From Saprospiraceae bacterium (GTDB taxonomy: Bacteria > Bacteroidota > Bacteroidia > Chitinophagales > Saprospiraceae): a DNA stretch of 64,000 nt. The notes under the pieces are model-generated. The model did no database searches. It was not told the origin of the DNA and saw only the letters and a list, made by a program, of their open reading frames with translations. The DNA lies in assembly GCA_016713025.1 (NCBI GenBank), contig JADJPZ010000003.1, positions 576,774 to 640,773 of the forward strand, read 5' to 3'. The position numbers were made by a program, and so were the translations under genes. The number at the start of each line of letters is the position of its first letter. Within the stretch, counting starts at the first letter, position 1. Shown here piece after piece: positions 39,989 to 53,338 of the stretch.

Positions 39989-40086
39989 ATACCAAACAGA
40001 AAATTGATTGATAAAATTTATAATCATAATTATTTAATTTGCAATACATTATGATTTAAATTTTTCGCAGAATATTTTCTGTTCAC
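39989..40086 (+). repeat. ~98-bp palindromic intergenic element, copy A
   Basis: see 33083..33180 and 53804..53901; starts 16 nt after the hppA stop. Confidence 0.8.
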
Positions 40087-40097
40087 TTTAAAATATC

Positions 40098-40142
40098 AAA
40101 AGCCTTCTGTAGTTCAATTATGGAAGGCTTTTTCTTTTTTTT
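40098..40142 (+). terminator. rho-independent terminator of hppA
   Basis: stem AAAAGCCTTC / GAAGGCTTTT followed by a long T-run. Confidence 0.65.
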
Positions 40143-40144
40143 GA

Positions 40145-42215: not shown

Positions 42216-42289
42216 GCCTCCTTAGCTCAGTCGGTTAGAGCGACGGACTGTTAATCCGCAGGTCCCAGGTTCAAGTCCTGGAGGGGGCG
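42216..42289 (+). tRNA. tRNA-Asn (anticodon GTT)
   Basis: acceptor GCCTCCT / AGGGGGC (one G-U), D-arm TAGCTCAGTCGGTTAGAGC, anticodon loop CTGTTAA, T-arm CCAGGTTCAAGTCCTGG; CCA not encoded. Confidence 0.9.
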
Positions 42290-42436: not shown

Positions 42437-42898
42437 TCATCCGATTGCCTGAACCATCTGGGACCGCCCAGCGTAAAACGATAATAAAAATTGATTTGTC
42501 TGCAAGTTACAATTTTGCTTCAAAGCACTTAGTATGTTTTGTATCAGGCAATACAGTGCTACCCCAGCCAACTTGACCAGGTTGAGCACCAGTATGATGG
42601 TGGAAATCCATGATTCACTCGTTGAAGTCAGCATGGCTCTTATCTTGTCAAAACCATAACCCCGCTTTGCCTGACCAAACTTGCCCTCTATGGGATTTCT
42701 TTCTCCGGGTCTTACTTGATTTGACAATGCCTTCGGTCTTCCTAATGGTTTTGCTCGTAACTCTATGCCCTGCTCTTTTAGAAAGTTTCGGAATTGATGT
42801 CCGAAACTTATATGAAAACGGTGGAATGGTGCATTGTGTGACTCAGCAACAACCACAATAAAGAAGTAGTGTGCTAAAAAAGCAGAATCATATACCAA
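42437..42898 (-). pseudogene. C-terminal remnant of an IS5/IS1182-like DDE transposase
   Basis: only the tail is recognisable: FLKEQGIELRAKPLGRPK...ERNPIEGKFGQAKRGYGFDKIRAMLTSTSESWI; no N-terminal DDE region upstream. Confidence 0.6.
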
Positions 42899-45445: not shown

Positions 45446-45542
45446 AATTGTCTTTAGTGAGGGTGCTGTAAAAGACTTGTATATCTTTAATCTAAATTAT
45501 TTTCTATGCCCCATTCGTAATTCACTCATTCGTAATTCGTAA
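45432..45542 (+). pseudogene. truncated RelE/ParE-like toxin (only about 16 N-terminal residues recognisable)
   Basis: MVLYEIVFSEGAVKDL matches the usual M.YEI.FS..A.KDL toxin start, then degenerates into repetitive CATTCGTAATT sequence and stops. Confidence 0.45.
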
Positions 45543-45549
45543 TTAAACC

Positions 45550-45711
45550 TCAATACCTCCCATCCTTAATAAAAGGCAGCTTCTCCATCTTGCTCACTTC
45601 CAGATCGCAAAGCCAAAACCATCCACTACCTTGCCTAGTACGGCATAGCAACCTTTGCCCTGAAATGCATAAGCTTTCAGGCTCGGAGGGAAATGTACGG
45701 TGGCAAAGAAG
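45550..45711 (-). pseudogene. decayed duplicate of the last ~54 codons of the DnaE2-like gene
   Basis: aligns to 49097..49259 with about 22 mismatches and one 1-nt deletion (frameshift); starts at the same TCA (stop) position. Confidence 0.9.
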
Positions 45712-45785
45712 CATTTTCACAAAAGCAAACGGTAAAATTTTAAAAAATTCTCAATTAATTAAAAAAATACCCTTATCTTTGCATT

Positions 45786-45798
45786 ATCAATACCTCCC
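45786..45798 (+). repeat. 13-bp direct repeat ATCAATACCTCCC, left copy
   Basis: identical to 49096..49108, which spans the KAP stop / dnaE2 stop junction; 12 of the 13 nt also occur at 45550..45561. Confidence 0.8.
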
Positions 45799-45863
45799 GG
45801 ACCTCTCTCGTCTTTGACGATGATGTGCATTTTTGGGGGGTTTTCTTTTTTTATACTTTTGTG

Positions 45864-46802
45864 ATGGCAAAGCAAAATAAACTATCATACAATAAGCTAC
45901 CCAAATCCTTTGAAAATCAGGTAAAACTACTAAAGTCAAGAGGACTTCATTTTGAGAATGAGAAGAAAGCGGAATAGATTCTGCAGTTTGTCAGTTACAA
46001 TAGGTTAAGTAATTATTGGTATCCGTTTTTAGAAGAACCAAAGACGGAAGAAGTATTCAAACCCGAAACTTCATTTGAGTCGATATTTAGTATTTATCAA
46101 TTTGATAGTGAATTACGAACACTAACATTTCAAGCTATCGAACAAATAGAAATTGCTGTAAGAACACAAATCATTTACCATTTGTCACATAAATATAATT
46201 CCGGCTTTTGGTATGAAAATTCCGGAGCATTTAAAAATTATCCTCAATATGTAAACTTTCTTTCAAAGATTACCATCAACACTGAGGAGTCAAAGCAGGA
46301 ATTCATTTTAAAATACAAAGACAAATACCAACAATTTCTGCCACCATCCTGGAAAGCTTTTGAAATAGTAACTTTTAACTCACTACTCTTCATTTTGAAA
46401 AATGTAGCAGATTTTAAAGATATTATCCCTGTGGCCAGAAGCTTTGGATTGAATCATGAAGTTTTCATTTCATGGGTAGAAACTTTAGTGTATATCCGGA
46501 ATATTTGTGCGCATCATAGTCGATTGTGGAATATAATTTTGACGATTAGTCCTACATGGCCAAAAAGCACATCAAAAAATTGGGTAGATAGATGGGAAAA
46601 TATTCCATCGAAAACTAACACAAGAGACAAGGTGTTAAAAACATATGCCGTATTCTGTATGATAGCATATTTGCATAGTCACATTAATCCATATAGTAAT
46701 TTCAAAGCTAAGTTGAAAAAGTTAATTGAAGAATTTACAGAAGTAGATATTAAATATATGGGATTTCCAGAAAATTGGGAAACACAACCTTTATGGAAGT
46801 GA
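45864..46802 (+). pseudogene. Abi_2 (AbiD/AbiF-like) abortive-infection protein with one in-frame TAG
   Basis: ATG 45864, TAG at 45975..45977 (codon 38), same frame continues ILQFVSYNRLSNYWYPF... into ORF 46182..46802 with YIRNICAHHSRLWN. Confidence 0.8.
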
Positions 46803-46828
46803 ATTTTAGAAGTTACATAACCATTAGC

Positions 46829-49096
46829 ATGAACTTTATAAAAAAATATTTCCCAAATCTAATTGTAATATTGCTCCCATTTTTGTTAGAGCAAAAGTCA
46901 TTGTATACATTTGTTTATTGGGTCTGGGTGAAGCCAATATCGCAAAATATTTTGGATAATATCTGTATATCTGCGCTACTAATTTCAGTTATAAGTTATC
47001 TTTATTGCATCGGCTTTTTTCAACGAAAGTCTAAACTTTTGCTTACTGCTCTTTTGACTGTGATTATTATAATGGCACAGACTTGGAACTATTGGGAATT
47101 TAAGGGATATTATTGGACTATGCCATTTCTACTTTTAATCATTTATACTATTTCTGAAATAACAATTAAAAAGAAATATGAGAAAACGTCTATAACAGAT
47201 GAGTTAAATCGAGATGGTTTTGCAGCGTCAATTTTGGAAGATATTAAGTTAAAAAAAGATATTGAACGCTCTTATAATTATGGTTTAGTTGGTGAATGGG
47301 GCTCAGGCAAATCATTTTTGATGGAAATGATGTATGAAAAAATGAAAAATGAGCCTAAAACATTCATTACTTACTATTTCAAACCTTGGGAAACACCCAA
47401 TGAAAAAGAATTTGCTATACAAATCCTGAACGGAATCAAATCAAAATCCGAAAATTATGAATTTGAAACCAAGATCAACAAATTTCTTTCGAAGATAGAA
47501 ACCGATTCAAGCGACATACTTACTAAAACATTCACAACGTTCTTCTCTTGGCTCATTTCTGATGACTCGAGTATTGATGACATTAAAAAAGACCTTTCAA
47601 ACTACCTTAAAAAGAACGATAAAAGATTAGTTGTATTTTTAGACGATTTGGATAGGTTGGACCAATCAGAGATAAAAGAGTTGCTAAGATTGATGCGTAA
47701 TACTTTTGATATACCATATTTGTTTTTTATTGTTGGGTATGACAGAGAATATTTAGCAAGAACCTTACGTCTTCCTTCAGTTAAGTTTGATAACTATATT
47801 TCTAAGTTTTTTCAGGTAAGAGTTGATATTCCATTATTAAATAAAGATGATCTTTTCAAGAAATATTATAGAAATGACTTATGTCTTGTTATGGACTTTG
47901 ATGCAAATGACTTGGATGAAGAAAAAAAGAATAAAGAATTGATCTCGTCATTTTTTTTGGATAAAATCCAAACGCCAAGGGATTATGAAAATATTATATC
48001 TTCGTTTGACGTTGCCTTTCGAAACCTACGCGATAACTGTGATTGGTTTACATTATTTCAACTTGAGATACTAAGACATAAAGAGTACGACAAATATATC
48101 GAAGCGAAAAGTGGGAATTATAATTATACAGGATCAGAAGTCTTGAAACAAGCATATGGAAAGTATCCAATAAGCGATATAAAGTATCGTCACAAGTACT
48201 TTTCTTTGGTCAATGCAGCTTATGAGATTGACCAAAGAGAACTTGATAAAATCCTTTCAGAGAATGACTTAACCATTGTTGAAGAAAAATTTGAAAAATG
48301 GCTGAAGGATGGGAAATATGATGATTTAGATAAAAAATTAAAGTACTACTTTAACAATTCTGACAATTTTATTGACCCTGACTTACTTCTACTCATAGAT
48401 AGTAAGATGGCAAGTGGACCTTATTCACGACATAGTGTATATAATCCTATATTAGAATATTTACTACGAATTTTAAAACACTTAAATATACCTGATTTTC
48501 ATTACATTGCAGGAATTCATAGTAAGTTAGACAATGCGAGTAAGTTAGACAATGCCAATATTAGTCGCAATATTTCATATTTTTTAGTAGATCATATTTA
48601 TAATAATGAATTGTGTAATGAAATTATTGAAAAGTTTAACTCACTAATAGTGACAAATCAATATTATGATAATCAACTTTTTTACTTTTTACAAAATGTT
48701 GAAGTTATGCAACAAAACTTTATTGATAGAGATATTTATAGAGAATCTTTCGAAAATTATTTGAATTTCAAAAATAATTTCAAAGGAAAAATTGATCCAA
48801 TTTTAACTAATTTTGCTAGAACCGATATAGTAGAATTTCTTCAAAATTTTAGTGCGCCCATACCAAATCCTCGTGGCCCTCTATACTCCATTTATGATGA
48901 TCTTGTACCCAAATTGATCAGTTATGATGATGTTTTAAAATTGCTTATTAAAGAAAAACAAACTGATTCAGTTAAAGAATTAGTTGATTTTGTTTCAAAG
49001 TTAAAGCAGGTTGAATTAGATTATCCTCAAGGTTATTCTGTTTTTGTCCAAAACTTTACATTTAGACATAACGAAAAAATTATTGATAAATCTTAA
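46829..49096 (+). CDS. KAP-family P-loop NTPase with N-terminal membrane helices (755 aa)
   Basis: 3-4 hydrophobic helices, DELNRDGFAASILEDI, Walker A GEWGSGKS, Walker B VVFLDDLDR; 18-bp tandem duplication at 48521..48556 (SKLDNA x2). Confidence 0.8.
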   Translation: MNFIKKYFPNLIVILLPFLLEQKSLYTFVYWVWVKPISQNILDNICISALLISVISYLYCIGFFQRKSKLLLTALLTVIIIMAQTWNYWEFKGYYWTMPFLLLIIYTISEITIKKKYEKTSITDELNRDGFAASILEDIKLKKDIERSYNYGLVGEWGSGKSFLMEMMYEKMKNEPKTFITYYFKPWETPNEKEFAIQILNGIKSKSENYEFETKINKFLSKIETDSSDILTKTFTTFFSWLISDDSSIDDIKKDLSNYLKKNDKRLVVFLDDLDRLDQSEIKELLRLMRNTFDIPYLFFIVGYDREYLARTLRLPSVKFDNYISKFFQVRVDIPLLNKDDLFKKYYRNDLCLVMDFDANDLDEEKKNKELISSFFLDKIQTPRDYENIISSFDVAFRNLRDNCDWFTLFQLEILRHKEYDKYIEAKSGNYNYTGSEVLKQAYGKYPISDIKYRHKYFSLVNAAYEIDQRELDKILSENDLTIVEEKFEKWLKDGKYDDLDKKLKYYFNNSDNFIDPDLLLLIDSKMASGPYSRHSVYNPILEYLLRILKHLNIPDFHYIAGIHSKLDNASKLDNANISRNISYFLVDHIYNNELCNEIIEKFNSLIVTNQYYDNQLFYFLQNVEVMQQNFIDRDIYRESFENYLNFKNNFKGKIDPILTNFARTDIVEFLQNFSAPIPNPRGPLYSIYDDLVPKLISYDDVLKLLIKEKQTDSVKELVDFVSKLKQVELDYPQGYSVFVQNFTFRHNEKIIDKS

Positions 49097-49108
49097 TCAA
49101 TACCTCCC
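49096..49108 (+). repeat. 13-bp direct repeat ATCAATACCTCCC, right copy
   Basis: see 45786..45798. Confidence 0.8.
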
Positions 49109-52036
49109 ATCCTTCACAAAAGGCAACTTCTCCATCTTGCTCACTTCCAGGCTCGCGAAGCCGAAGTCATCGACTACCTTGCCTAGTACGATGTAGCAAC
49201 CTTTACCCTGAAATGCGTAAGCTTTCAGACTAGGTGGGAAGTGTACCGTGTCAAAGAAGTGTCCATCTACGTCGGTCATCGTACCGAAATTCATGAGATC
49301 GCCTTTGGAGGTGGTGACCCACTTGCGACAGACGTAGTAGCCGACCATACGGACGGTCTTGCCGATGTAGTCTTTCATTTGGGTGGCTCTGATGTCTCCG
49401 CGGAACTTCGTCTGGAGCAGGTCAAAGGGATTGCAGAGCGGAAATCCGAGCAGCTCTATCTCGTCGAAAGATTGCTCGTGCTCGGTCTCTGAGAGTATAG
49501 GTAGCGTGAAATTTTCCATCTCTGTGTCGAAGAGCATCTCCCCGGCATAGGCGTGTTTGATGAGCGGATTGTGGACAGCATTTTTTTCCCACATAAGTTC
49601 GTACTTGTTCATCCCTGTGAAGCGGAAAGCACCGATGCGGATGAGGATTTCGAGTTGCTCTTTGGAGATATTGATGCGATGGGTAAAGTCCTTGAGGCTG
49701 CGGTAATCGCCATGTATCTGGCGCTCTTCGACGATGGCGTGGGCGAGTTTTTGCTCCAGGTTGGCGAGGTGGACGAAACCAATGTAGATCGTGGTACCAT
49801 AGATATTGGTGAGGTAGGTAGAGTTATTGACGCAGGGTGCTTCTATCTTGGCACCACACATACGGGCTTCGTGGACGTACTGCTCCGTACTGTAGAATCC
49901 ACCAAAATTATTGATCACGGCGGTCATAAATTCGAGCGGAAAATAGGTCTTGAGATAGAGACGTTGGAAAGACTCTGCCGCAGAACTCGCCGAGTGCGCC
50001 TTGCAGAAGGAATAACCACTGAAACTCTCGATCTGCCGCCACACTTCCTTGCTGAGTTCGTCGGGATAACCACGCTCTTTGCAGTTTTTAAAATATTTCT
50101 CTTGTAGTCGATAGAAGGTGTCCGAACTCTTCTTTTTACCGGTCATGATACGTCGTAGCACGTCTGATTCATCAAGATCGAGACCCGAGAAATGGTGGAC
50201 GATCTTCATCACGTCTTCCTGATAGACCATGACACCATAGGTCTCGCCGAGATGCTCCTCAAATACCGGATGGAGATACGTATAGCTGTCCGGCTTATGA
50301 AAACGCTGTATGTACTCGCGCATCATACCCGACTGCGCTACGCCCGGGCGTATGATGGAGCTGGCGGCGACGAGATGTACGTAGTTATCGCATCGCAACT
50401 TGTGTAGCAGTCCACGCATGGCGGGCGACTCGATGTAAAAGCAGCCGATGCAGTGACCGGATCGGAGCTGGGTTTTGACGTTTGGGTCTTCTTTGATCTG
50501 TGCCACATTGTGTACGTCGATAGCCTTGCCCTGATTTTGTTTGACGAGATCAACGGCATCTTTGATATGGCCGAGACCACGCTGCGAGAGCACATCGTAT
50601 TTGTGGTATTCGAGATCTTCAGCTCCGTACATATCGAAGTGTACGATGGGAAATCCCTTGGGCATGAGTTGTAATGCCGTGTGGTAATTGAGTGGTTTTT
50701 CGCTGATGAGTATACCGCCGGCGTGGATAGAGAGATAATTGGGAAACTTTTCGATCATCTTGCCATACTTAAAGATGTGTTTGGCAAAAGGATGATGTTT
50801 GTCCACGGCCATAGGTTCGTCCACGATGGTGTCTATGTCCGCTTTGGGTAGGCCAACCACTTTGCCGAGCTCACGGATGATGGACTTGCCCTTGAAGGTA
50901 TTGTATGTGGCGAGCAAGGCCGTATGTTCTTTGCCATATCGTTTGAAGATGTAGTCGGTGACATCATCACGGTTATTCCATGAGAAGTCGATGTCAAAAT
51001 CCGGTGGTGAAGACCGATGTGGATTGATAAATCGCTCAAAATACAGGTCCAGCTCCAGTGGATCTACGTCGGTGATATTGAGATTGTAGGCTACGATAGA
51101 GTTGGCTCCTGATCCGCGACCTACGTGGAAGTAACCTACAGAGTGTGCATACCTTACGATGTCCCACGTGATGAGAAAATAAGCACAGAAGCCCATCTGT
51201 TGTATGACTTTGAGTTCACGAAGTGTACGCTCCATCGCTTTTTTATGCTTATCTCCAAAGCGTCTTTTGCACCCACTGACAGCGAGTTTGGTCAGAAGTT
51301 TGAAGTCATCCGTCTCATCACCAGTGAAAGTACGACGATTGTGGAGCTTTGTTGCCTCCATCTCTGTATGGCAAGTATCCAAGATACGTTGTGTGTTGGC
51401 AATGATGTGTGGATACTGTTGGAAGACATTTTCGAGATGACCTTTTGGGTAAAATATCTCAGATGACTTGGCACAATCTTTAGGGTCAAGCTTGCCGATG
51501 ACGATGTTGAGATCGATACAACGCAGCAGCTTGTGCGCCTTAAATCCATCCTCATCTGCGAAAGTCACCGGACTGAAGATGACGAGTTTGTCGGGATAAT
51601 TTTTGAGATAGGATGAGTACAGATGATTGACTTCTTCGGGTCTGATGCCAGCATATTCGTAGTCACGGAGCAGCTCCACACCTTTGGGTAGTTTGCGATA
51701 GATGATGTAGCAATGGTGAAGTTCGGGAGCTTCCTTGGGCAGTGGTTCGCCTGTAAGTGAGGACTCTGTGAGCAGGGAACAAAGCTCGCGCCATCCTTCA
51801 TCGTTTTTGGCTATGCCGAGATATAGAAACTCATTGTCCTGACGAAATTCTATACCAAGGATGGGTTTTATACCTTGCTCGCGACATGCACGTACAAACT
51901 GAAAAGCAGCGGAAGTATTGTTGATATCAGACATGACGAGACACTCCACGCCATAAGACTTAGCGATGCCAGGCAACTCTTCGGGAGCGAAGGTGCCGTA
52001 GCGGAGGCTGAAGTAGGAGTGACAGTTGAGATACAT
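49097..52036 (-). CDS. dnaE2: short DNA polymerase III alpha-type protein (error-prone DnaE2/ImuC-like, 979 aa)
   Basis: PHP start MYLNCHSYFSLRYGT, catalytic PDFDIDFS, FCKAHS; shorter than replicative DnaE; visibly GC-richer than neighbours. Confidence 0.7.
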   Translation of the reverse strand: MYLNCHSYFSLRYGTFAPEELPGIAKSYGVECLVMSDINNTSAAFQFVRACREQGIKPILGIEFRQDNEFLYLGIAKNDEGWRELCSLLTESSLTGEPLPKEAPELHHCYIIYRKLPKGVELLRDYEYAGIRPEEVNHLYSSYLKNYPDKLVIFSPVTFADEDGFKAHKLLRCIDLNIVIGKLDPKDCAKSSEIFYPKGHLENVFQQYPHIIANTQRILDTCHTEMEATKLHNRRTFTGDETDDFKLLTKLAVSGCKRRFGDKHKKAMERTLRELKVIQQMGFCAYFLITWDIVRYAHSVGYFHVGRGSGANSIVAYNLNITDVDPLELDLYFERFINPHRSSPPDFDIDFSWNNRDDVTDYIFKRYGKEHTALLATYNTFKGKSIIRELGKVVGLPKADIDTIVDEPMAVDKHHPFAKHIFKYGKMIEKFPNYLSIHAGGILISEKPLNYHTALQLMPKGFPIVHFDMYGAEDLEYHKYDVLSQRGLGHIKDAVDLVKQNQGKAIDVHNVAQIKEDPNVKTQLRSGHCIGCFYIESPAMRGLLHKLRCDNYVHLVAASSIIRPGVAQSGMMREYIQRFHKPDSYTYLHPVFEEHLGETYGVMVYQEDVMKIVHHFSGLDLDESDVLRRIMTGKKKSSDTFYRLQEKYFKNCKERGYPDELSKEVWRQIESFSGYSFCKAHSASSAAESFQRLYLKTYFPLEFMTAVINNFGGFYSTEQYVHEARMCGAKIEAPCVNNSTYLTNIYGTTIYIGFVHLANLEQKLAHAIVEERQIHGDYRSLKDFTHRINISKEQLEILIRIGAFRFTGMNKYELMWEKNAVHNPLIKHAYAGEMLFDTEMENFTLPILSETEHEQSFDEIELLGFPLCNPFDLLQTKFRGDIRATQMKDYIGKTVRMVGYYVCRKWVTTSKGDLMNFGTMTDVDGHFFDTVHFPPSLKAYAFQGKGCYIVLGKVVDDFGFASLEVSKMEKLPFVKDGRY

Positions 52037-52417: not shown

Positions 52418-53338
52418 CTAAATTCTGCCATCTTTTTTACTCAACGGGTGATATTTTATCATAGTCTCTCTAAGGTAATTTCTGTCCAGATGAGTGTAGA
52501 TTTCTGTAGTCAGTATGGATTCATGACCCAACATTTCCTGAACAGCTCTGAGATCCGCACCTCCTTCTACCAGATGGGTTGCAAAAGAATGTCTGAAAGT
52601 ATGCGGGCTAACCGACTTTCTGATTCCTGCTTGTGTTGCATATTGTTTGATCAGTGTAAAGACCATCACTCTGGTGAGACCTTTCCCTCTTCTGTTGAGA
52701 AAGAGCGTATCTTCATGATTTTTGGCAATGACGGGCAGAATTTTTCGTTCAGTATCTAAGTATAATAGAATATGTTTGATAGCTGAAGTGCCAATAGGAA
52801 TTAATCGTTCTTTATTGTTTTTCCCCAGTACTTTCACAAATCCCTGATCAGGAAAAAAATTACTTATCTTTAGTGTGATCAATTCAGAAACCCTCAAACC
52901 ACAGGCATAAAGAGTCTCCAGCATGGCGCGGTTACGCTGACTATGTGGCAGTGACATATCTATACTTCCGATCATATGGTCTATTTCCTCATAGCTCAAC
53001 ACATCTGGCAATGCACGCTGCAATTTGGGTCCTTCCAGTAATGAAGATGGGTCATTTTCAATAATGTCTTCCATCATCATATACTTGTAAAAAGCCCTGA
53101 TTCCCGAAATGATGCGAGCCTGACTTTTGGGCTCGAGGCCAAGATCATTGATATAATAAATAAAAGATGTCAGGTGGTCAGTTGTCAATTTATCAGGCGT
53201 AAGATCTATCTTGCTGATAATCACATATTCCATTAGTTTTTCAGCATCACGGATATAAGCCTCGATGGAGTGTGCCGAAAGTGACTTTTCAAGCAGTAGA
53301 TAAGCCTGGAAACCTTTCAAAGTGCTGTGCCAATCCAA
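52418..53338 (-). CDS. xerD: tyrosine site-specific recombinase XerD
   Basis: N-terminal SAM-like FQAYLLLEKSLSAHSIEAY, R...HTFRHSFATHL...LGH....TEIYTH catalytic set. Confidence 0.8.
   Translation of the reverse strand: MDWHSTLKGFQAYLLLEKSLSAHSIEAYIRDAEKLMEYVIISKIDLTPDKLTTDHLTSFIYYINDLGLEPKSQARIISGIRAFYKYMMMEDIIENDPSSLLEGPKLQRALPDVLSYEEIDHMIGSIDMSLPHSQRNRAMLETLYACGLRVSELITLKISNFFPDQGFVKVLGKNNKERLIPIGTSAIKHILLYLDTERKILPVIAKNHEDTLFLNRRGKGLTRVMVFTLIKQYATQAGIRKSVSPHTFRHSFATHLVEGGADLRAVQEMLGHESILTTEIYTHLDRNYLRETMIKYHPLSKKDGRI

What the first reader, a model, noticed from the sequence alone, without database searches (positions are those of the whole stretch)
45864..49096. Abi_2 gene plus an N-terminally membrane-anchored KAP P-loop NTPase: candidate two-gene defence islet
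Seen in the sequence:
- 45864..46802 encodes an Abi_2-type protein (VSYNRLSNYWYPF near the N-terminus, YIRNICAHHSRLWN block).
- 26 nt downstream on the same strand, 46829..49096 encodes a 755-aa protein with the KAP layout: DELNRDGFAASILEDI, Walker A GEWGSGKS, Walker B VVFLDDLDR.
- In this KAP protein, 3-4 hydrophobic helices precede the P-loop and none lies between Walker A and B. The last ~450 aa carry no motif I recognise.
- Both genes look much more AT-rich than the flanking dnaE2-like and epimerase genes, and they sit in a repeat-bounded insertion next to a dead toxin-antitoxin module.

Established knowledge:
- Abi_2 (AbiD/AbiF-like) proteins are abortive-infection effectors.
- KAP NTPases were defined by TM helices inserted inside the NTPase domain (Aravind et al. 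2004) and recur in defence neighbourhoods.

Inference: the pair is one functional module in which a membrane-tethered NTPase acts as sensor or switch for an Abi_2 effector. I know of no named system with this pairing or with this KAP topology.
Basis: partly seen in the sequence, partly recalled or inferred. Interest (0 to 1): 0.75.

Follow-up and report, generated by a model that had tools for sequence, protein, structure and literature searches.

The report
Two adjacent anti-phage genes, not one system
A small AT-rich insert at the end of a DNA-polymerase gene in a Saprospiraceae bacterium carries two anti-phage genes of known kinds, a broken AbiF-type RNase toxin and an intact membrane-anchored KAP NTPase, and the evidence favours two separate defences sharing a hotspot over a new two-gene system.

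Summary
45864-46802 is an Abi_2/AbiD-type gene (Pfam 1.6e-48; PADLOC AbiD 2.3e-70; PDB 8VZ6 PbAbiF 1.8e-58) broken by one AAG-to-TAG change at codon 38. 46829-49096 is an intact 755-aa KAP NTPase with about four N-terminal membrane helices and none between Walker A and B. The islet (45713-49096, GC about 0.30) lies between 163-nt direct repeats of the dnaE-like gene's 3' end.

The interpretation as one module is poorly supported.
- The pairing occurs only in one orthologous locus of closely related Saprospiraceae (DnaE 95-98% identical).
- In that same locus, Abi_2 is replaced by other defence genes (L004, L008), truncated (L012) or stopped (window), while the KAP reading frame is complete where the contig covers it.
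- None of 29 more distant KAP loci has an Abi_2 gene, and none of 73 Abi_2 loci has a KAP gene.
- Abi_2 relatives sit in restriction-modification operons and carry their own conserved leader hairpin, as expected for AbiF-type RNA-antitoxin modules.
- Stand-alone TM-KAP proteins with unknown C-terminal regions were shown in 2026 to defend as single genes.
- The N-terminal-TM layout is common: 88 of 100 related cluster representatives.

The KAP C-terminal helical-repeat domain is mosaic between alleles (31-62% identity). Verdict: new members of known kinds.

The parts
45550..45712 (-). Left direct repeat: decayed copy of the last 54 codons plus stop of the dnaE-like gene, with a 1-nt indel
   Evidence: tblastn shows the same kind of remnant in L001, L004, L005 and L012
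45774..45781 (+). TATCTTTG, which fits the Bacteroidota -7 promoter box TAnnTTTG. The consensus is from my own knowledge; promoter function is inferred.
   Evidence: conserved position upstream of related Abi_2 genes
45792..45853 (+). Conserved leader hairpin (outer stem 45792-45798 / 45835-41) followed by a U-tract. Putative AbiFr-like antitoxin/terminator RNA.
   Evidence: analogy to RCd22/AbiFr; no Rfam RF03085 match
45864..46802 (+). Abi_2/AbiD/AbiF-type HEPN RNase gene. It is a pseudogene through Lys38 AAG to TAG at 45975-45977. HEPN motif RNICAH at 46497-46514.
46829..49096 (+). Intact 755-aa membrane-anchored KAP NTPase gene. A possible upstream GTG start at 46799 overlaps the Abi_2 stop.
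46829..47170 (+). N-terminal membrane region of the KAP protein, residues 1-114, about four TM helices
47255..48013 (+). KAP NTPase plus lid, residues 143-395. Walker A at 47291-47314, Walker B at 47630-47656.
48074..49093 (+). C-terminal all-alpha helical-repeat domain, residues 416-755. Mosaic and hypervariable between alleles.
49097..49260 (-). Right direct repeat: the functional 3' end of the dnaE-like gene, abutting the KAP stop codon with 0 nt between
49097..52036 (-). 979-aa DnaE-like polymerase gene. It is the insertion target and anchor of the islet, not part of the defence genes.

Best explanation
The islet holds two self-sufficient anti-phage modules that share an integration hotspot at the 3' end of a chromosomal dnaE-like gene in a Saprospiraceae bacterium.

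Module 1 is an AbiF/AbiD-type type III toxin-antitoxin-like unit.
- It consists of a promoter, a conserved leader hairpin with a U-tract, and the Abi_2 HEPN RNase.
- The leader is inferred to be an AbiFr/RCd22-like RNA that terminates transcription and neutralises the toxin.
- In this genome the toxin is dead: Lys38 has become a stop codon.

Module 2 is an intact single-polypeptide KAP NTPase.
- It has a four-helix membrane anchor, a cytoplasmic NTPase with lid, and a C-terminal helical-repeat domain.
- The C-terminal domain is swapped and diverged between alleles.

Inferred mechanism for module 2:
1. The variable C-terminal domain recognises a phage product.
2. The NTPase switches or oligomerises. 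Its nearest solved fold is the RdrA ring ATPase, followed by ORC/Cdc6 and NLR NB-ARC.
3. The output is exerted at the membrane, as in PifA-type permeability lesions.

Shown: domain identities, topology, the pseudogene state, the repeats, the distribution of the linkage, and the allelic mosaicism.

Inferred: RNA antitoxin function, the sensor role of the C-terminus, the membrane effector step, and independence of the two modules.
For: Identities:
- Abi_2: Pfam 1.6e-48, PADLOC AbiD 2.3e-70, and PDB 8VZ6 (the PbAbiF-ncRNA complex) at 1.8e-58 over the full length.
- KAP: Pfam 1e-33, with a partial PADLOC PifA match at 4.3e-31.

Independence of the two genes:
- Abi_2+KAP adjacency was found only next to a DnaE that is 95.5-98.5% identical.
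- Where Abi_2 is missing, other genes fill the slot. L004 has PD-T4-10_B-like and PDC-M21A-like genes. L008 has AbiLi/AbiLii.
- In L004, homology to the window begins 6 nt before the KAP start codon.
- Abi_2 is stopped in the window and C-terminally deleted in L012, while KAP is intact in both.
- None of 29 distant KAP loci has an Abi_2 gene within 8 kb.
- None of 73 Abi_2 loci has a KAP gene within 5 kb.
- Abi_2 relatives lie in type I or type IIG restriction-modification contexts. This matches PMC3710099.

Abi_2's own leader RNA:
- The leader is conserved upstream of Abi_2 relatives at about 58-68% identity, in unrelated genomic contexts.
- Its 7-bp stem is 100% paired in 9 sequences and shows compensatory changes.
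- A covariance model finds it just upstream of two Abi_2 genes of 31-33% identity, at E about 0.05.
- AbiF biology is described in PMC12373285 and PMC12737573.

KAP as a single-gene defence:
- PMC13552941 shows this for TM + KAP + unknown C-terminus proteins. Both Walker B and the C-terminus are required.
- The structure model has pLDDT 81, and its top PDB hit is RdrA.
- The C-terminal domain resembles only generic helical repeats.
- The C-terminal domain is 31-62% identical between alleles and the NTPase core 80-91%. P0004 combines a window-like N-terminus with a P0008-like C-terminus.
- dN/dS is below 1 in all segments.
Against: - The adjacency is kept in five diverged lineages of the locus, with a 26-nt gap or an overlapping upstream start and no terminator between the genes. 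The two genes are therefore probably co-transcribed.
- KAP-type ATPases do work with separately encoded effectors in RADAR (RdrA-RdrB) and Qat.
- The leader does not match Rfam's abiF motif, and its fold energy alone is unremarkable (z = -1.5).
- No experiment exists for this KAP subfamily.
- The C-terminal domain could be an effector rather than a sensor.
- The neighbour surveys cover tens of loci, not the whole family.
Confidence: 0.68

Rival explanations
1. Abi_2 and KAP form one two-gene system. The membrane-tethered KAP NTPase senses infection and switches on the Abi_2 HEPN RNase, by analogy with RdrA-RdrB or QatA and its partners.
For: - The same-strand, tightly spaced or overlapping junction is conserved in the window, L001-3, L005-6, L007 and L012.
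- The nearest solved fold for the NTPase is RdrA, which partners a separate effector.
- No enzymatic effector domain is recognisable in the KAP protein.
Against: - The linkage is confined to one orthologous locus.
- KAP alleles occur with other upstream genes.
- Abi_2 has been lost twice while KAP stayed intact.
- 29 distant KAP loci and 73 Abi_2 loci show no linkage.
- Abi_2 has its own leader RNA and its own usual partners, the restriction-modification systems.
- Single-gene KAP defences are documented.
Confidence: 0.12
2. The islet is a decaying remnant with no current function. Abi_2 is already a pseudogene, and KAP is an intact-looking passenger on its way to loss.
For: - A nonsense codon interrupts Abi_2.
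- No recombinase lies within the islet.
- In L013 the KAP gene is disrupted by an IS element.
- The repeat copies have diverged.
Against: - The KAP ORF is full length with intact Walker motifs.
- dN/dS is 0.12-0.36 across all KAP segments against three alleles.
- The Abi_2 defect is a single recent substitution in a gene otherwise under purifying selection (dN/dS 0.08-0.17).
Confidence: 0.12
3. The TM-KAP protein is not a defence protein. It is a membrane-associated NTPase with a housekeeping or signalling role, and it happens to sit next to an Abi gene.
For: - No enzymatic effector domain is recognisable.
- PifA's primary function has been questioned (PMC13552941).
Against: - The family is sparse and patchy: only 30 word-sharing homologs were found.
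- The gene has low GC and lies in an island.
- Allelic neighbours are defence genes.
- It matches PADLOC PifA, PDC-S20 and QatA models.
- The C-terminus is mosaic and hypervariable, as is typical of arms-race genes.
Confidence: 0.05

Closest known systems
AbiF/AbiD (Pfam Abi_2) type III toxin-antitoxin-like abortive-infection modules: PbAbiF-AbiFr (PDB 8VZ6) and AbiFCd-RCd22 of C. difficile
   Same: - Full-length homology to 8VZ6 (E 1.8e-58) and to the PADLOC AbiD model.
- HEPN Rx4H motif present.
- A promoter-proximal conserved hairpin with a U-tract lies between promoter and ORF, like the terminator-bearing antitoxin RNA.
- Relatives are embedded in restriction-modification operons.
   Different: - The ORF carries a premature TAG.
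- The leader does not match Rfam abiF motif RF03085 and has one hairpin rather than two abiF motifs.
- RNA-protein binding is untested.
Stand-alone KAP P-loop NTPase defence proteins (EF_KAP and three metagenomic KAPs, PLoS Biol 2026, PMC13552941)
   Same: A single polypeptide with TM helices, a KAP NTPase and a C-terminal region of about 320-340 aa with no known domain. The C-terminal regions are diverse.
   Different: - EF_KAP is modelled with one N-terminal helix and one helix inside the NTPase domain. This protein has about four helices, all N-terminal.
- Sequence relatedness to EF_KAP could not be tested.
- There are no functional data for this subfamily.
PifA of the F plasmid (T7 exclusion)
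   Same: - The KAP NTPase plus lid module is shared: 23% identity over residues 127-416, E 3e-17.
- PifA is membrane-associated and causes permeability lesions (references within PMC13552941).
   Different: - PifA has no N-terminal TM region: Walker A is at residue 53 and no hydropathy peak exceeds 1.3.
- The C-terminal halves are unrelated.
- There is no pifC-like repressor neighbour here.
RADAR RdrA and Qat QatA (KAP/STAND-like ATPases that work with separately encoded effectors)
   Same: - RdrA is the best Foldseek PDB hit (8hr8, E 6.7e-5).
- QatA models give weak hits to the P-loop region.
   Different: - No RdrB or QatBCD genes are present.
- The QatA equivalog scores 35.7 bits against a cut-off of 600.
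- No partner gene is conserved across homologs.
- RdrA and QatA lack the N-terminal TM bundle (this last point is from my own knowledge).
[quoted passage not shown]
   Same: A membrane-embedded P-loop NTPase acting as a single-gene defence. It is triggered by a phage protein and has a membrane or ion-flux output (PMC13001434 abstract).
   Different: - It belongs to a different NTPase family (YobI, not KAP).
- Its TM helices follow Walker A rather than preceding the domain.

Membership tests
Pfam Abi_2 / AbiD-AbiF HEPN RNase toxins | Abi_2 domain above the curated threshold | tested here: met
   165.9 bits against a cut-off of 25.6, covering the full profile 2-184; PADLOC AbiD 2.3e-70; 8VZ6 at 1.8e-58
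Pfam Abi_2 / AbiD-AbiF HEPN RNase toxins | HEPN catalytic Rx4-6H motif | tested here: met
   RNICAH at residues 212-217. It aligns with the R210/H215 region of PbAbiF (alignment; residues named).
Pfam Abi_2 / AbiD-AbiF HEPN RNase toxins | Intact coding sequence | tested here: not met
   TAG at codon 38, where four relatives have AAA or AAG. A sequencing error cannot be excluded.
AbiF type III TA (RNA antitoxin) | Cis-encoded structured ncRNA with a terminator upstream of the toxin gene | tested here: inconclusive
   - A conserved hairpin plus U-tract is present, with compensatory changes.
- There is no RF03085 match.
- Binding and antitoxin activity cannot be tested with these tools.
KAP P-loop NTPase (Pfam PF07693) | KAP_NTPase domain with Walker A and Walker B | tested here: met
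   117.3 bits against a cut-off of 20; GEWGSGKS and VVFLDDLDR present
KAP P-loop NTPase (as defined by Aravind et al. 2004) | Two or four TM helices inserted inside the NTPase domain | tested here: not met
   No hydropathy peak lies beyond residue 113. The helices between the Walker motifs are not hydrophobic. The same holds for 88 of 100 related representatives. The original paper was not available.
PifA (F plasmid) system | Full-length homology to PifA | tested here: not met
   BLASTP aligns only the NTPase and lid, at 23% identity. The PADLOC PifA model is matched over positions 157-341 of 720.
PifA (F plasmid) system | pifC-type repressor gene adjacent | tested here: not met
   F has pifC directly upstream of pifA. 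No such gene lies in the window islet.
Stand-alone TM-KAP fusion defence proteins (PMC13552941) | TM helices, KAP domain and a required C-terminal region of unknown function in one polypeptide | tested here: met
   The architecture is shown. Whether the C-terminus is required cannot be tested here.
Stand-alone TM-KAP fusion defence proteins (PMC13552941) | Single gene sufficient for phage protection | not testable with these tools
   Only indirect support: the gene occurs without Abi_2 in L004, L008, L009, L011 and L014.
Two-gene KAP-ATPase + effector systems (RADAR, Qat, or the proposed Abi_2+KAP) | Partner effector gene conserved next to the ATPase across diverged homologs | tested here: not met
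   Abi_2 is adjacent only in one locus lineage. It is absent from 29 distant KAP loci, and KAP is absent from 73 Abi_2 loci. The QatA equivalog scores far below its cut-off.

The most novel reading that the evidence does not exclude
Within this Saprospiraceae lineage the AbiF-type RNase and the TM-KAP NTPase have become functionally coupled. One version: KAP, on sensing a phage product through its variable C-terminal domain, releases or activates the RNase from its RNA antitoxin. Another version: both genes are gated by read-through of the same leader terminator. Either would be a membrane-sensor-to-HEPN-effector pathway not described for AbiF or for KAP proteins.
Probability: 0.12. Interest if true: 0.6.

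Novelty: new member of a known kind. Interest (0 to 1): 0.3.

Why it matters
The value is modest.
- It is a worked example of a tight, apparently conserved gene pair in a defence islet that reflects shared ancestry of a single hotspot, not functional coupling.
- The locus offers a natural allelic series. Near-identical flanks and NTPase cores carry swapped C-terminal helical-repeat domains. This could be used to map what sets phage specificity in the newly recognised single-gene TM-KAP defences.
- The conserved leader hairpin extends the AbiF RNA-antitoxin idea to a subfamily of Abi_2 genes, seen in Saprospiraceae and in environmental metagenomes, that the Rfam abiF model does not detect.

Tried and rejected
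- Rfam searches of the whole window, the islet and the 200-nt leader found no abiF motif or other family. The only hit was a tRNA at 42216-42289.
- The sigma-70 promoter and intrinsic-terminator scan was uninformative: 30 promoter-like sites against 20 expected, and 0 terminators. Bacteroidota promoters are not covered by that scan.
- tblastn of the KAP protein gave only weak NTPase-domain hits on plasmids, and nothing in phage records or IMG/VR.
- Foldseek of the C-terminal domain alone found no PDB match better than E = 0.05.
- The Aravind et al. 2004 paper was not available.
- I considered the XerD-like recombinase (52418-53338) as the integrase for the cassettes. I rejected this because it is absent next to dnaE in L001, L005 and L007.
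- I considered the DnaE-like gene as a third component, since it is always adjacent. I rejected this because the duplicated 3'-end remnants explain the adjacency as an insertion-target relationship, and the genes are convergent.
- I rejected PifA orthology.
- I considered positive selection as the sole cause of C-terminal divergence. I rejected this because dS is also elevated or saturated there, and alleles are mosaic.
Full report
**Observation**

The Abi_2 gene:
- Frame 1 of 45864-46802 gives a 312-codon protein with a single in-frame TAG at codon 38.
- With that codon masked it matches Pfam Abi_2 over the whole profile (1.6e-48) and PADLOC AbiD (2.3e-70).
- It also matches the solved 'Abi family protein' 8VZ6 end to end (1.8e-58). 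A review identifies 8VZ6 as the PbAbiF-ncRNA complex (PMC12737573).
- The HEPN motif RNICAH is present at residues 212-217.
- Four relatives have AAA or AAG (Lys) at codon 38, so the window carries a single AAG-to-TAG substitution.

The KAP gene:
- 46829-49096 encodes an intact 755-aa protein.
- Pfam KAP_NTPase scores 1e-33 over residues 143-395. Walker A is at 155-162 and Walker B at 268-276.
- Hydropathy peaks occur only in residues 9-113.
- An AlphaFold2 model (pLDDT 81, pTM 0.64) shows five N-terminal helices, a P-loop core with lid, and an all-alpha C-terminus.
- Positive charges after helices 2 and 4 (QRKSK, KKKYEK) fit an N-in, four-TM topology with a cytoplasmic NTPase. This is read from the sequence and is inferred.

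Composition and repeats:
- The two genes have GC 0.32 and 0.29, against 0.36 for the window and 0.49 for the dnaE-like gene.
- The islet proper (45713-49096) lies between 163-nt direct repeats, 45550-45712 and 49097-49260.
- These repeats are the last 54 codons of the dnaE-like gene. The left copy carries a 1-nt indel.

**Where the pairing occurs**

Only 30 homologs of the KAP protein were found by the word-indexed search, and about 11 of them are close.

Within the close group:
- The contigs with an intact Abi_2 gene immediately upstream (L001-3, L005-6, L007) all carry the same 979-aa DnaE-like gene convergent 3-6 bp downstream.
- That DnaE is 95.5-98.5% identical to the window's, and Abi_2 is 89-94% identical.
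- The species-representative scan places the close relatives in Saprospiraceae MAGs from activated sludge (L012, L013). These also share the neighbouring xerD gene with the window.
- All Abi_2+KAP cases are therefore one orthologous locus in a group of related species (dS of dnaE about 0.85).

Within that same locus the Abi_2 slot is variable:
- L004 has a PD-T4-10_B-like wHTH protein and a PDC-M21A-like protein upstream of KAP. Homology to the window starts 6 nt before the KAP start codon.
- L008 has a divergent AbiLi/AbiLii pair.
- L012 has an Abi_2 gene missing its last ~80 codons.
- L013 has the KAP gene disrupted by an IS element, next to hsdM fragments.

Outside that locus:
- More distant proteins with the same TM-KAP-C-terminus architecture (P0012-P0015, 23-32% identity) have no Abi_2 neighbour.
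- None of 29 further KAP loci from named genomes has one within 8 kb.
- In the other direction, 73 metagenomic loci encoding Abi_2 relatives (22-68% identity) contain no KAP gene within 5 kb.
- The informative Abi_2 loci lie next to type I HsdM/HsdR (L043), between HsdM and HsdS (L051, L054), or on relaxase-bearing elements before Eco57I/MmeI-type enzymes (L046, L047). This agrees with the published association of Abi2 HEPN proteins with restriction-modification operons (PMC3710099).

**Abi_2 as a self-contained module**

- AbiF-family proteins are now described as type III toxins. An upstream ncRNA that carries a terminator neutralises them (PMC12373285; PMC12737573).
- Upstream of the window's Abi_2 there is a TATCTTTG box (45774-45781). 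It is followed by a hairpin (stem 45792-45798 / 45835-45841) and a U-tract ending 10 nt before the ATG.
- The same element precedes Abi_2 relatives at about 58-68% identity in unrelated contexts (L043, L046, L047, L048, L056).
- The 7-bp stem is paired in all 9 sequences. One pair shows a C-G to G-C exchange and one pair shows three pair types.
- A covariance model built from these finds the element in two further loci not used for the model (L049, L057). At E about 0.05 it also finds it just upstream (about 30-40 nt) of two Abi_2 genes of 31-33% identity (L059, L061).
- The element does not match Rfam's abiF motif, and its folding energy alone is unremarkable. I therefore treat it as a probable, not proven, AbiFr-like leader.

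**KAP as a self-contained module**

- A 2026 study showed that single KAP proteins protect against phage. These combine TM helices, a KAP domain and a roughly 320-aa region with no known domain. Both Walker B and the C-terminal region were required (PMC13552941).
- The window protein has that layout.
- It is not a PifA ortholog. F PifA aligns only over the NTPase and lid (23% identity). PifA has no N-terminal TM region, and its C-terminus is unrelated.
- The topology is not unusual. A profile search found 23,750 KAP-type cluster representatives, 1,510 of them at E <= 1e-30. Of 100 full-length top hits with a recognisable Walker A, 88 have at least two hydrophobic segments before Walker A and none after it.
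- Foldseek places the NTPase nearest to RdrA of RADAR, then ORC/Cdc6 and NLR NB-ARC domains.
- The C-terminal 340 residues, modelled alone (pLDDT 77), resemble only generic helical repeats, with E > 0.05.

**Allelic variation**

- Against the window, the NTPase core is 80-91% identical, the TM region 53-87%, the lid 52-61% and the C-terminal domain 31-62%.
- The C-terminal domains fall into at least two groups. P0004 combines a window-like N-terminus with a P0008-like C-terminus.
- Nucleotide similarity to most alleles stops near 47860-48090.
- dS is about 0.2-0.65 in Abi_2 and the NTPase core, but 1-2 or saturated in the lid and C-terminus. dN/dS stays below 0.4.
- This pattern points to exchange of old, diverged domain alleles rather than only fast point evolution. 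It fits a recognition role for the C-terminus, which is an inference.

**Insertion site**

- dnaE 3'-end remnants also lie to the left of the islets in L001. There are two each in L004 and L005, and three in L012.
- The site has therefore taken up cassettes repeatedly.
- No recombinase lies inside the islet.
- The outer flanks differ between lineages.

**Verdict**

The sequence observation is confirmed. The islet is best read as two neighbouring defence modules of known kinds, one of them dead, in a chromosomal hotspot. A functional Abi_2-KAP partnership is not excluded, because the genes are probably co-transcribed, but it has no support from independent lineages. I give it about 0.12.

Noticed in passing
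window 45774-45853; also L043 4918-4990, L046 2926-2997, L047 4921-4992, L048 123-199, L049 344-415, L056 25-107, L057 1266-1348: A conserved leader lies upstream of this Abi_2 subfamily. It has a Bacteroidota-type -7 box, a hairpin with compensatory changes and a U-tract. Rfam RF03085 does not detect it. The inner mini-hairpin (45804-45817 in the window) is present, replaced or deleted in different relatives.
   Followed up: partly
window 49097-52036 (-); L001, L004, L005, L012: - The 979-aa DnaE-like gene is compositionally odd: GC 0.487 against 0.361 for the window.
- It scores below NCBIfam cut-offs for both DnaE1 and error-prone DnaE2.
- Its 3' end is a repeated insertion site. Up to three decayed 3'-end copies occur in a row (L012 1182-1272, 4719-4808, 6944-7107), with no integrase in the cassettes.
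   Followed up: partly
window 45864-47870 vs L005: dS between the window and L005 is 0.18 for Abi_2 but 0.87 for the adjacent dnaE. This suggests recent exchange of the left part of the islet between lineages by recombination.
   Followed up: partly
L004 4393-5927; L008 3921-5975; L013 1-6100: The slot upstream of KAP in allelic loci holds other defence-type genes. L004 has PD-T4-10_B-like/Csa3-like wHTH and PDC-M21A-like genes. L008 has AbiLi/AbiLii. L013 has hsdM fragments plus an IS transposase that cuts the KAP gene.
   Followed up: partly
Neither has a Pfam, PADLOC or NCBIfam hit. A 75-nt stretch of the 61-aa ORF recurs in L012 (1386-1460).
   Followed up: partly
window 45513-45544: A short repeated motif, ATTCGTAATTC, occurs three times just outside the left dnaE-3' repeat. 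It lies in the stretch that is still shared with L001 (homology starts at 45504).
   Followed up: no
window 42216-42289 and 42437-42898: A tRNA gene (69.8 bits) lies next to a 153-aa minus-strand ORF that looks like the C-terminal fragment of an IS transposase. The transposase resemblance is by eye only.
   Followed up: no
L009 8543-13896 / L010 2726-8079: A distant TM-KAP homolog (P0013, 29% identity) sits convergent to a cluster that encodes a DCD-domain protein, two unknown proteins, an IetA-like AAA ATPase and a Thy1-domain protein.
   Followed up: no
window 40083-40144: The leader covariance model gives a weak hit here (28.5 bits, E 0.01), in the AT-rich spacer after the pyrophosphatase gene. 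It is probably an ordinary terminator hairpin.
   Followed up: no
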